The notes under the pieces: generated by a model | Seen by the model: the letters and a program-made list of their open reading frames with translations, nothing else | Told to the model about the DNA's origin: nothing | The model's database searches: none | Made by a program: the position numbers and the translations under genes | Virus record (IMG/VR): IMGVR_UViG_2660238683_000003 | Span: 1 to 27,426 of that record | Reading direction: 5' to 3' (one strand) | Source: a virus | Taxonomy: Duplodnaviria > Heunggongvirae > Uroviricota > Caudoviricetes | DNA: 27,426 nt | Shown here: one piece after another, positions 19,521-21,109 of the stretch | How the letters are laid out: each line of letters opens with the position of its first letter | How positions within the stretch are numbered: the stretch's first letter is position 1

Positions 19521-19601
19521 GATCTTATCGCCTACCGTTTCGGTTTAAGTTTTTCTTCCAGCTTCTCCAACAGGAAAAACGCATAGGATTCAGTGAGCCT
19601 T

Positions 19602-20483
19602 TCAGCGTCCTGAATCGGTATACCCCCATACAAAACCAGGTTGGACACTAAGGTCTGATAGCTTTTCAATCCCCACCTGTGGAATGAAGTCGGTAGCCCG
19701 AAAGGGCACCCACAGACGGGTATACGCACCCTCTGTGGACTCCTTTTTATCCTGGTTTGGGCATTTATGCGGCGGGAGACGAAGACGCATTTCACCTTTA
19801 TCGATGTAGCACGGTAAACCATGTTCGAGCTTTTCATGAGCCAGTCGGATGTGTGCCGCCAGCTTCATAAATTCAGTATCAATGGCCATCCGTTTAATCG
19901 TTTCATAACGACGCTCAGCCTGATCTTCACGAGTACCGCTAACATCGTTATAAAGCTCACACTGATAAGCGAATTCCCAAAAACGCAAATCAACGATCGC
20001 TTCTTTGAATTCCGCGTCGTCTTCAGGTGGCAATGCAGCACGGCGCATCTCCAGCATTTCCATTGCCCAACCATCAAGCGGCACGATACGCCATTGATAG
20101 GGCACTCCCTCTACAGACACCTCAATATCGTCAATGAACGGTTCCACTTCCAGGACATGGATATCTTCAGCCAGAGCATTCATATCGCAATCGTAATAAT
20201 GCTCTTTACCGCAATGTTTACAGGTGTAGGTGAATGTCTCGACCGGTGTTTCACGGGAGCCGGTAAATATCCACCATAACGCGGTAATCCGGTCCTGCGC
20301 CGTCCATGTCAGGGGATCATGTTTCGCGGGTTCAGCCAGCAAGGCTTTTAAATACGCCGTTGTCTGTTGTTCTTGTTCCTCCGGTGTTATCGAGTTGAAA
20401 CGCATCGCATCAGCAATATTTGGCTGACGGAACTGGATCAATTCAGTTGGCCGCGATGGTAGCGGGAAAAGAGGTAAAAGCAT
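19602..20483 (-). CDS. pmgB: Tail morphogenesis protein (PmgB-like), 293 aa as written; 3' end may be frameshifted
   Basis: ATG with AAGGAG SD. Upstream of sit. The stop at 19602 leaves an 81-nt gap before sit, while a +1 frame from a G5 run continues to within 11 nt of sit. Confidence 0.5.
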   Translation of the reverse strand: MLLPLFPLPSRPTELIQFRQPNIADAMRFNSITPEEQEQQTTAYLKALLAEPAKHDPLTWTAQDRITALWWIFTGSRETPVETFTYTCKHCGKEHYYDCDMNALAEDIHVLEVEPFIDDIEVSVEGVPYQWRIVPLDGWAMEMLEMRRAALPPEDDAEFKEAIVDLRFWEFAYQCELYNDVSGTREDQAERRYETIKRMAIDTEFMKLAAHIRLAHEKLEHGLPCYIDKGEMRLRLPPHKCPNQDKKESTEGAYTRLWVPFRATDFIPQVGIEKLSDLSVQPGFVWGYTDSGR

Positions 20484-20497
20484 CCTTGCTCCTTAAT

Positions 20498-21109
20498 TCA
20501 AAGAGAAAAGCTAAAGCCCAGAAGGGAAGCCAAAGAACTTGAGGATTGGTTAAACGTGCTGTGCAATGCGAAGGTCATTGGGAATGACTTAAATTCAGTA
20601 ACCTGATCTCGCGCATAGGTGACATCGCCGGTAGTGACCGGGAATACCGTCATCTCATTTTCCAGTTTGGTTAAGCCGGAAGACAGCAACCGATAAATAC
20701 GCACATTGAGCAAATATTTAGACGGTATATTCCCGGTACCGTCCGGATTGATCACCCGACTTTTTGCCGTCTTAAACCAGTCCAAAACGAGGCCATCAAC
20801 GGTATCCCTGACCATCATTGTTATCTGCCCAGGCGAACGCTCCGTTGGTTGAAGGATATTCCCTCCGCCGATTTTAATCGTTTCATATTCGATGCTGTAA
20901 TCGTGGTAGGTAATATCTTTGGCAAAGAAGTCTGCCCCCTCCAGTCCATCAACTTCGACAGAGAACTGCCATCCTTGCGCGAACAACATTTTGTTCATGA
21001 TGATTGACGTCAGCTTACCGACTTCCCGCTCACCAACGCCGGAGCCAAATAATGTCGTCGTTAATGCCGAAGATACATAAGACTTTACTGAAGCAACATT
21101 AAACCCCAT
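20498..21109 (-). CDS. tub: Tail tube-like structural protein (203 aa)
   Basis: ATG with GAGAGGG SD. Size and position between pmgC-like and pmgB-like genes. Name by synteny only. Confidence 0.45.
   Translation of the reverse strand: MGFNVASVKSYVSSALTTTLFGSGVGEREVGKLTSIIMNKMLFAQGWQFSVEVDGLEGADFFAKDITYHDYSIEYETIKIGGGNILQPTERSPGQITMMVRDTVDGLVLDWFKTAKSRVINPDGTGNIPSKYLLNVRIYRLLSSGLTKLENEMTVFPVTTGDVTYARDQVTEFKSFPMTFALHSTFNQSSSSLASLLGFSFSL

What the first reader, a model, noticed from the sequence alone, without database searches (positions are those of the whole stretch)
19532..19640. Apparent +1 frameshift at a G5 run truncating the pmgB-like gene just before sit
The 293-codon frame stops at 19602, leaving an unusual 81-nt gap before sit. 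From the run tatGGGGGtata (about 19622-19626), the +1 frame continues for about 30 more codons (...GIPIQDAERLTESYAFFLLEKLEEKLKPKR) and stops 11 nt before the sit ATG. That is the tight spacing seen at every other junction in this operon. One extra G in the run would produce this. It could be a homopolymer sequencing error, a genuine inactivating mutation, or less likely a programmed shift like those in tail-chaperone genes upstream of tape-measure genes.
Basis: seen in the sequence. Interest (0 to 1): 0.45.

Follow-up and report, generated by a model that had tools for sequence, protein, structure and literature searches.

The report
Hidden frameshift in P1 tail chaperone
The 81-base "gap" between pmgB and the tape-measure gene sit of this P1-like phage is really the end of a second, longer PmgB protein. 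It is most likely made when ribosomes slip one base forward at a conserved UUU-C site, an unannotated version of the frameshift that other tailed phages use to build their tails.

Summary
pmgB (293 codons, minus strand) stops 81 nt before sit, and a +1-frame ORF runs on to 11 nt before the sit ATG. The G5 run is at 19623-19627, one base off the stated position.

The G-run explanation is wrong. All 86 P1-type loci have exactly five Gs. The same two-frame layout is kept in 18 lineages down to 31% identity, most of which have no G-run.

Conservation switches from the 0 frame to the +1 frame about 25 codons upstream of the G-run, at codon 261. This codon is TTT followed by C in 18/18 lineages (TTT_CGG in 13). 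TTTC is the only invariant block in a gapless 102-nt alignment.

The extension is under purifying selection in the +1 frame. D6-type elements have no start codon in it before codon +43. It is never found fused in-frame in 5.8 billion proteins.

Best reading: a programmed +1 ribosomal frameshift at UUU_CGG (window 19703-19698). It would give PmgB (293 aa) and a 316-aa form with a 55-aa helical tail. PmgB sits between the tube and tape-measure genes, and its model resembles gp26-type hub proteins and, weakly, tail assembly chaperones.

Nothing in the records or papers I could search describes this. Neither the shift nor the long protein has been shown experimentally.

The parts
19602..20483 (-). 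pmgB 0-frame ORF (293 aa, 34.1 kDa), the short product. Residues 1-261 are shared with the long product.
   Evidence: ORF list. Identical layout in the P1 reference AF234172. Matches phrog_1854 'PmgB-like' at E 2e-144. The AF2 model has pLDDT 86, with the 0-frame tail 274-293 below 50.
19698..19706 (-). Proposed +1 shift site CCC_UUU_CGG. Phe261 UUU is 19703-19701, the skipped base is C19700, and the 0-frame A-site codon CGG is 19700-19698.
   Evidence: TTT followed by C in 18/18 lineages: TTT_CGG in 13, CTC in 3, CGC in 1, CAA in 1. TTTC is the only invariant block in the gapless 102-nt alignment. It is the only in-frame TTT_C in this pmgB. Phe261 is TTT in 18/18, against 5/17, 7/17 and 14/16 at the other conserved Phe positions.
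19674..19700 (-). Nine-codon stretch coding in both frames just after the shift site. The 0 frame reads RATDFIPQV (conserved F-I/L-P tail of the short form) and the +1 frame reads GLPTSFHRW.
   Evidence: Both frames are conserved across 18 lineages (BLOSUM62 per site 1.94 and 1.47; third frame -0.07). In five lineages the 0 frame stops exactly 9 codons after the TTT.
19532..19699 (-). +1-frame extension read after the shift: 55 codons GLPTSFHR...KLKPKR plus TAG 19534-19532. It gives a 316-aa, 37.0-kDa trans-frame product.
   Evidence: Translation. Conserved as protein in 18 lineages. pN 0.08-0.13 against pS 0.56-0.71. Mismatches at codon positions 1/2/3 are 39/14/97. The AF2 single-sequence model has pLDDT 89.7 and four helices. 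Molecular weights.
19623..19627 (-). It encodes Trp-Gly in the 0 frame and Gly-Gly of the conserved LYGG in the +1 frame. It is not the shift site.
   Evidence: G5 in 86/86 P1-type loci. Absent from D6-, Vibrio- and Aeromonas-type relatives, which keep the extension. It lies downstream of the start of +1-frame conservation.
16098..19520 (-). sit, the tape-measure protein with an SLT domain. Its ATG is 11 nt after the stop of the extension.
   Evidence: ORF list. P1 annotation 'putative tail ruler'. In relatives the extension stop lies 0-30 nt from, or overlaps, the start of the tape-measure gene.
20498..21109 (-). tub, the major tail tube gene, immediately upstream of pmgB.
   Evidence: ORF list. 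P1 annotation.

Best explanation
pmgB most likely encodes two proteins through a programmed +1 ribosomal frameshift.

Most ribosomes read the 0 frame to the TGA at 19604-19602. They make the 293-aa PmgB, whose tail carries a conserved F-(I/L)-P motif.

A fraction of ribosomes shift when Phe codon 261 (UUU, 19703-19701) is in the P site and CGG is waiting in the A site. Peptidyl-tRNA-Phe re-pairs one base forward on UUC, so C19700 is skipped. GGG is then read as Gly, and translation continues for 55 codons in the +1 frame to TAG 19534-19532, 11 nt before the sit ATG. The result is a 316-aa protein with the same 261-residue body and a small helical, basic C-terminal domain.

The gene lies between the tail tube gene tub and the tape-measure gene sit. 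Published work shows it is essential for tail formation and absent from virions. The pair therefore most likely works like lambda gpG/gpGT: the shared body acts on the tape-measure/hub complex, and the alternative tail of the minor form recruits a second partner (tube or hub).

What is shown: the two-frame architecture, the invariant UUU_C, protein-level selection on the extension, and the lack of an independent start codon in D6-type elements.

What is inferred: that the event is ribosomal, how efficient it is, the pausing role of CGG, and the binding partners.
For: 1. The layout is not private to this window. The P1 reference has the same ORFs and gap, and 86/86 P1-type loci have G5.
2. Eighteen lineages at 31-100% aa identity all keep a +1 ORF that overlaps the pmgB end and stops at the start of the tape-measure gene. 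They come from Escherichia, Cronobacter, Pantoea, Citrobacter, Enterobacter, Serratia, Rosenbergiella, Xenorhabdus, Shewanella, Vibrio and Aeromonas.
3. The possible shift window is 11 codons. In L104 the +1 frame opens only 2 codons before the TTT, and in five lineages the 0 frame stops 9 codons after it. Within that window only TTTC is invariant.
4. Conservation switches frame at that point. The 9 codons upstream score 1.60 (0 frame) against 0.31 (+1 frame). Codons +1 to +9 score 1.94 and 1.47. Codons +10 to +30 score 0.26 against 2.66.
5. The extension evolves as a protein in the +1 frame.
6. D6 and the E. marmotae plasmid have no ATG, GTG or TTG in the +1 ORF before codon +43.
7. All 25 database homologues of the fused sequence cover only about 83% of it or less, that is, none extends past the shift site. 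A profile of the extension finds only 31-99-aa ORFs among 5.8 billion proteins, and a single-sequence search of 1.84 billion representatives finds only four hits, none a PmgB-sized fusion.
8. One natural variant, L091, has TTT_TGG, which is still UUU_Y.
9. UUU_Ynn is a documented +1-prone site in bacteria, and UCC_UUU_CGU is the influenza PA-X cassette (PMC5009743).
11. The published complementing clone ends at the annotated TGA, so it lacks the last 23 codons of the extension. It rescued only 4.7-fold.
Against: - There is no direct evidence for the trans-frame protein, such as a peptide, an immunoblot or ribosome profiling.
- No conserved stimulatory RNA structure was found (0 predicted pairs; window fold z = -1.06), and no conserved Shine-Dalgarno-like element. 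Efficiency may therefore be low and cannot be estimated.
- CGG is not rare in these phage genes (17.5% of Arg codons). Its conservation could be forced by the +1-frame Gly rather than by a pausing role.
- Three lineages have CTC and one has CAA instead of an Arg codon.
- The conserved TTT third base also fits simple dual-coding constraints if some other nearby site were used.
- The weak complementation is not specific: pmgA and pmgC clones also rescued poorly.
Confidence: 0.8

Rival explanations
1. Sequencing error or a real inactivating one-base insertion in the G5 run. The ancestral gene would be a contiguous 316-codon ORF with G4.
For: A G5 homopolymer lies in the overlap, and removing one G would join the frames. 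One phage record, vB_EcoM-813R1, does match pmgB in two pieces, so errors do occur in this gene.
Against: G5 is present in 86/86 independent P1-type loci and in the P1 reference. Relatives without any G-run keep the same two frames. +1-frame conservation starts 25 codons upstream of the run. No contiguous homologue exists in 5.8 billion proteins. pmgB is essential and functional in P1.
Confidence: 0.01
2. The +1 ORF is an independent small gene translated from its own start codon. It is annotated this way in phi456 (Orf23, 38 aa), in JK004 (gene_9, 29 aa) and as scattered 'hypothetical proteins'.
For: Some annotators and gene callers call it. P1-clade sequences contain in-frame TTG, GTG or ATG codons within the ORF.
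Against: No start codon is conserved in position. D6 and the E. marmotae plasmid have none before codon +43, well past the most conserved block NLxLYGxQP. Conservation begins exactly at the TTT_C. The annotated starts differ between records and would cut off conserved residues.
Confidence: 0.05
3. A frameshift does occur, but at another site or at lineage-specific sites. Examples are the 0-frame stop codon in Vibrio-type elements (UUU_UGA in V. alginolyticus) or GGG_G in the P1 G-run. Alternatively it arises by RNA-polymerase slippage rather than on the ribosome.
For: V. alginolyticus has TTT_TGA at its 0-frame stop, and several lineages have a second TTT_C six codons downstream. The nine codons after the TTT are conserved in both frames. 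Comparative data alone therefore do not fix the site to the nucleotide.
Against: None of these alternative motifs is shared across lineages, whereas TTT_C is in 18/18. A shift at the G-run would skip 25 conserved +1 codons. No homopolymer long enough for transcriptional slippage is conserved.
Confidence: 0.1

Closest known systems
Lambda gpG/gpGT tail assembly chaperone frameshift, and its counterparts in most long-tailed phages (Levin 1993; Xu, Hendrix and Duda 2004; summarised in PMC5009743)
   Same: The gene sits between the major tail/tube gene and the tape-measure gene. Two products share an N-terminal body. The longer one is made by a frameshift near the 3' end and terminates at the tape-measure gene. 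The products are needed for tail assembly but absent from virions.
+1 frameshifting at UUU_Ynn in bacteria (Yersinia YopN-TyeA) and the influenza A PA-X cassette UCC_UUU_CGU (PMC5009743)
   Same: A P-site UUU is followed by a pyrimidine, so tRNA-Phe can re-pair on UUC. An Arg CGN codon occupies the A site. No downstream RNA structure is required. P1 has CCC_UUU_CGG.
   Different: The host and gene context differ. Here the evidence is comparative only, and the efficiency and the role of the CGG codon are untested.
T4 gp26 / gp26' baseplate hub assembly protein (Pfam PF12322, phrog_150)
   Same: The predicted fold of the PmgB body is closest to proteins annotated as gp26-type baseplate hub proteins. 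There are weak Pfam and PHROG hits. T4 gene 26 also yields two related products.
   Different: T4 makes its second product by an internal in-frame start, not a frameshift. Gene 26 abuts gene 25, is not next to the tape-measure gene 29, and has no room for an extension. Sequence similarity is below Pfam's threshold, and hhalign against T4 gp26 itself was inconclusive.
Predicted +1 chaperone frameshift of the haloarchaeal myovirus HSTV-2 (cited in PMC5009743)
   Same: A tail-chaperone frameshift in a contractile-tailed virus that goes into the +1 frame.
   Different: An unrelated host domain and unrelated proteins. It is also only predicted.

Membership tests
Frameshifted tail assembly chaperone (lambda G/GT type) | Gene located immediately upstream of the tape-measure gene and downstream of the major tail/tube gene | tested here: met
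   The order is tub - pmgB - sit in the window and in P1. The same synteny holds in relatives, for example L103, where the next gene carries an SLT domain.
Frameshifted tail assembly chaperone (lambda G/GT type) | A second ORF in another frame overlaps the 3' end, lacks its own start, and extends to the tape-measure gene | tested here: met
   Present in 18/18 lineages. No start codon in D6-type elements before codon +43. The extension stop lies 0-30 nt from the start of the tape-measure gene.
Frameshifted tail assembly chaperone (lambda G/GT type) | Canonical -1 slippery heptamer X_XXY_YYZ in the overlap | tested here: not met
   The second frame is +1. The -1 frame carries stops. The conserved element is UUU_C.
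Frameshifted tail assembly chaperone (lambda G/GT type) | Chaperone fold of the shared body | tested here: inconclusive
Frameshifted tail assembly chaperone (lambda G/GT type) | Both products made, in a set ratio, and both required for tail assembly | not testable with these tools
   From the literature only: a pmgB deletion makes no tails, and PmgB is absent from virions. The two products have never been distinguished.
+1 programmed frameshift at UUU_Y / UUU_CGN | P-site UUU followed by a pyrimidine, allowing re-pairing on UUY | tested here: met
   TTT_C in 18/18 lineages. One P1-type variant has TTT_T. The control Phe positions use mixed codons.
+1 programmed frameshift at UUU_Y / UUU_CGN | Slow-to-decode A-site codon | tested here: inconclusive
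   CGG in 13/18 lineages, but CTC, CGC or CAA in the others. CGG makes up 17.5% of Arg codons in the neighbouring phage genes. The low abundance of E. coli tRNA-Arg(CCG) is textbook knowledge and was not tested here.
+1 programmed frameshift at UUU_Y / UUU_CGN | Trans-frame protein demonstrated | not testable with these tools
   Needs mass spectrometry, an immunoblot or a reporter assay.
T4 gp26-like baseplate hub assembly protein (PF12322) | Sequence match to PF12322 above the gathering score | tested here: not met
   17.8 bits against a cutoff of 24.5. Eleven of 17 members hit weakly, with a best E of 5.3e-5.
T4 gp26-like baseplate hub assembly protein (PF12322) | Fold similarity to gp26-type proteins | tested here: met
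   BFVD Foldseek has 40 hits at E <= 1e-3. The best is the Bacillus phage SP-15 baseplate hub subunit (E 6e-9, TM 0.62/0.72). Hits include 'baseplate hub assembly protein, T4-like' and Aeromonas phage 25 gp26.

The most novel reading that the evidence does not exclude
PmgB and its frameshift form are the missing G/GT equivalent of T4-type contractile tails. On this reading, the gp26-like 'hub assembly' family is a large, divergent branch of the tail assembly chaperones. In the P1/D6 group of plasmid prophages it has replaced the usual -1 heptamer with a structure-free UUU_CGG +1 site. The efficiency of that site, and so the ratio of short to long chaperone, would be set by how fast the host decodes CGG. 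This would couple tail assembly to the host's tRNA-Arg(CCG) supply or its translational state.
Probability: 0.25. Interest if true: 0.75.

Novelty: new variant of a known kind. Interest (0 to 1): 0.6.

Why it matters
P1 is one of the most used phages in bacterial genetics, and pmgB is one of its few essential genes without a defined function.

If the frameshift is real, an essential 316-aa protein is missing from every P1-family annotation examined here, in phage records and in PGAP-annotated plasmid records (the family has 673 matching plasmid records). The 81-150-nt "intergenic" gaps upstream of the tape-measure gene in these elements would then be coding.

It would also mean that published pmgB complementation constructs omit part of the gene. 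That gives a concrete, testable reason for their poor rescue.

More generally, the tail-chaperone frameshift rule is stated to hold for long-tailed phages "except T4". This case would extend it to a T4-like tail module and to a gp26-like protein. It would also add a clean, deeply conserved bacterial example of +1 frameshifting at UUU_CGN, the site type used by influenza PA-X. The case is directly testable in E. coli with one synonymous mutation.

Tried and rejected
- **RNA stimulator.** RNAalifold on 18 sequences from -12 to +90 around the site predicted no pairs. The window's own fold is not unusual (z = -1.06). I found no conserved SD-like element by eye. A GGGUG upstream is confined to the P1 clade.
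- **Family assignment of the extension.** No Pfam, PHROG or NCBIfam hit. Foldseek of its AF2 model against BFVD gave nothing better than E 0.9.
- **Solved-structure sequence search** with the family profile gave only spurious cullin hits.
- **hhalign** of the family profile against T4 gp26 aligned only a 20-residue Cys motif (33% probability). The gp26 link therefore rests on fold and on weak Pfam and PHROG hits.
The body and the extension were modelled separately.
- **Xu et al. 2004** could not be read, so I cannot say whether P1 was examined there. The Xenorhabdus record FO818638 could not be opened for its annotation.
- **-1 or -2 alternatives.** The third frame is full of stops. A -2 re-pairing of tRNA-Phe on CUU/AGU is not supported by the sequences.

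Full report
**What is in the window**

The genes concerned lie on the minus strand in the order pmgC (21686-21120), tub (21109-20498), pmgB-like (20483-19602, 293 codons) and sit (19520-16098, 1140 aa). The pmgB TGA is at 19604-19602 and the sit ATG at 19520-19518, so 81 nt are unassigned. The pmgC-tub and tub-pmgB junctions are 10 and 14 nt.

A +1-frame ORF overlaps the pmgB 3' end and stops at TAG 19534-19532, 11 nt before sit. However, the +1 frame is open for 86 codons upstream of the pmgB stop, so nothing in the sequence itself points to the G-run as the join.

**It is not an error or a private mutation**

The region is 97-99% identical to 20 P1-type phage records. The P1 reference has the same 293-codon pmgB, the same 81-nt gap and the same sit start. 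Across 86 P1-type loci fetched from phage records, GTDB genomes and IMG/VR contigs, the run is G5 in every one.

**Divergent relatives keep the two frames**

tblastn found PmgB relatives in 23 phage and 673 plasmid records. Together with genome and metagenome loci, I compared 18 lineages at 31-100% amino-acid identity. They are P1-type, Cronobacter JK004, Pantoea, D6, and Enterobacter, E. marmotae, Citrobacter, Serratia, Rosenbergiella, Xenorhabdus, Shewanella, two Vibrio, Aeromonas and four uncultured elements.

In every one, a +1-frame ORF overlaps the end of the pmgB homologue. It continues for 19-51 codons past the 0-frame stop and ends within 0-30 nt of, or overlapping, the start of the tape-measure gene. 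Annotators leave gaps of about 115-150 nt there. Occasionally they call a tiny ORF (phi456 Orf23, JK004 gene_9).

The +1 peptides align without gaps over about 45 residues (G-I-x-x-S-F-x5-G-W-x-T-L-I-N-N-L-x-L-Y-G-x-Q-P-x2-D...L-x-E-K-Y-K). Most of these lineages have no G-run.

**The extension is protein-coding in the +1 frame**

Downstream of the 0-frame stops, pN is 0.08-0.13 against pS 0.56-0.71 for moderately diverged pairs. This is similar to the body of the gene. Mismatches fall 39/14/97 on +1-frame codon positions 1/2/3. In the overlap, pS is depressed (0.08-0.47), as expected if both frames are read.

A single-sequence AlphaFold model of the 55-residue extension is confident (pLDDT 89.7) and shows four helices. 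In contrast, the last 20 residues of the 0-frame product are modelled as disordered (pLDDT below 50).

**It is not an independent gene**

Positions of ATG, GTG and TTG in the +1 ORF are not conserved. D6 and the E. marmotae plasmid have none until codon +43, beyond the best-conserved block.

When the fused 316-aa sequence is used as a query, all 25 hits cover about 83% of it or less, so none runs past the shift site. When a profile of the extension is searched against 5.8 billion proteins, the 19 hits are all 31-99-aa ORFs. An exhaustive search of 1.84 billion representatives with the single 55-aa sequence gave only four hits: three small ORFs and one weak, repetitive match to a 2165-aa protein. 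No lineage has the two parts in one frame, so the frame change appears obligatory and ancient.

**Where the frames join**

In L104 the +1 frame opens only two codons before a conserved Phe codon. In five lineages (Shewanella, two Vibrio, Aeromonas, L104) the 0 frame stops nine codons after it. The shift must therefore lie in an 11-codon window if the site is homologous.

In a gapless 102-nt alignment of the 18 sequences, the only invariant block is TTTC. This is Phe codon 261 plus the first base of the next codon: TTT_CGG in 13 lineages, TTT_CTC in 3, TTT_CGC in 1 and TTT_CAA in 1.

That Phe is TTT in 18/18. Other conserved Phe positions use TTT in 5/17, 7/17 and 14/16, and overall usage is 52% TTT. 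It is the only in-frame TTT_C in this pmgB. One P1-type variant has TTT_TGG, which is still UUU-pyrimidine.

Amino-acid conservation switches frame exactly here (mean BLOSUM62 per site):

| Codons relative to the TTT | 0 frame | +1 frame |
|---|---|---|
| 9 codons upstream | 1.60 | 0.31 |
| +1 to +9 | 1.94 | 1.47 |
| +10 to +30 | 0.26 | 2.66 |

The G-run encodes the GG of the conserved +1 motif LYGG, 25 codons downstream of the switch. It cannot be the join.

**Mechanism**

UUU_Ynn is described as especially prone to +1 frameshifting in bacteria even without a stop codon, and as the probable YopN-TyeA site. The minimal influenza PA-X cassette is UCC_UUU_CGU (PMC5009743). P1's CCC_UUU_CGG fits this type.

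The proposed event is as follows. tRNA-Phe in the P site re-pairs from UUU to UUC while the A-site CGG waits for its tRNA. That tRNA is a minor species in E. coli, which is textbook knowledge and was not tested here. GGG (Gly) is then read.

No conserved downstream RNA structure was found, which is usual for +1 sites. Whether CGG acts as a pause or is simply forced by the +1-frame Gly cannot be separated. It is not rare in the neighbouring phage genes.

The products would be PmgB (293 aa, 34.1 kDa) and a 316-aa, 37.0-kDa form.

**Function**

Gonzales et al. 2022 showed that a pmgB deletion makes no tails and that PmgB is absent from virions. From its position upstream of sit, they proposed a tape-measure chaperone. 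They do not mention a frameshift (PMC9024508).

The G/GT frameshift is said to be conserved in long-tailed phages 'except T4'. T4 gene 26 makes a second product from an internal start and is not adjacent to its tape-measure gene.

I therefore read PmgB and its long form as working like G/GT: a shared body and alternative C-terminal tails. They do not belong to the canonical -1 family.

The published complementing clone's reverse primer places HindIII directly after the annotated TGA, so it lacks the last 23 codons of the extension. It rescued 4.7-fold, the weakest of the five clones. The pmgA and pmgC clones were also poor, however.

**Novelty and limits**

No record examined annotates the joined product. 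No paper in the searchable library links pmgB to frameshifting. Xu et al. 2004 could not be read.

All the evidence is comparative. The trans-frame protein, the exact junction and the efficiency remain to be shown.

Noticed in passing
L005 (phage D6 MF356679) 2331-2470: The deposited D6 sit start (ATG at L005:2331) overlaps the whole +1 extension of pmgB. The N-terminus that aligns with P1 Sit (LKENKDRIAIIDAIQEAS..) begins at a TTG near 2463, preceded by GAGAGG. PGAP picks the equivalent TTG in related plasmids (L095 1769, L096 1767). The D6 sit start is probably over-extended by about 44 codons.
   Followed up: partly
L002 (phi456) 1453-1569; L004 (JK004) 2363-2452: Small 'hypothetical protein' CDSs (38 and 29 aa) annotated between pmgB and sit are fragments of the +1 extension, called from arbitrary internal start codons. 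Nineteen such 31-99-aa ORFs exist in the protein database.
   Followed up: yes
L091 (IMGVR_UViG_2778261541_000008), homologue of window 19703-19698: One P1-type contig has TTT_TGG instead of TTT_CGG at the shift site (Arg to Trp in the 0 frame, Gly unchanged in the +1 frame). It keeps UUU-pyrimidine but replaces the Arg codon. It could be a natural test of the role of CGG, or a sequencing variant.
   Followed up: no
window 20219-20210 and 19763-19761 (PmgB residues C88, H90, C91, H95, C241): C88, C91, H95 and C241 are invariant and H90 nearly so across 17 lineages (C-x-H-C-x3-H plus a distant Cys). This suggests a metal-binding site in the chaperone body. One metagenomic homologue (P0018) carries an insertion with extra CxxC pairs at this position.
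   Followed up: no
PMC9024508 supplementary primer table (P1 coordinates about 44492): The published ppmgB complementation clone ends at the annotated pmgB TGA (primer aaacagccaagctt-tcagcgtcctgaatcgg). It therefore omits the last 23 codons of the +1 extension. The pmgB deletion removes the shift site but leaves the 3' end of the extension.
   Followed up: yes
phrog_1854 / RefSeq product name for window 19602-20483: The label 'PmgB-like head morphogenesis' conflicts with the experimental phenotype (no tails; unstable heads as a secondary effect) and with the tail and baseplate fold matches. The name appears to be a misnomer that has spread into RefSeq P1, P7, SJ46, RCS47 and D6.
   Followed up: partly
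H24, phage vB_EcoM-813R1 (ON470617.2) 17214-18091: pmgB matches in two tblastn pieces in this record only, which suggests an indel inside the gene body (an assembly error or a defective copy). It is unrelated to the conserved shift site.
   Followed up: no
L105 (T4 NC_000866) 3803-4429: T4 gene 26 is annotated with a nested in-frame product 26' (95 aa) and abuts gene 25. A gp26-type protein thus also yields two related products in T4, but through internal initiation rather than frameshifting.
   Followed up: partly
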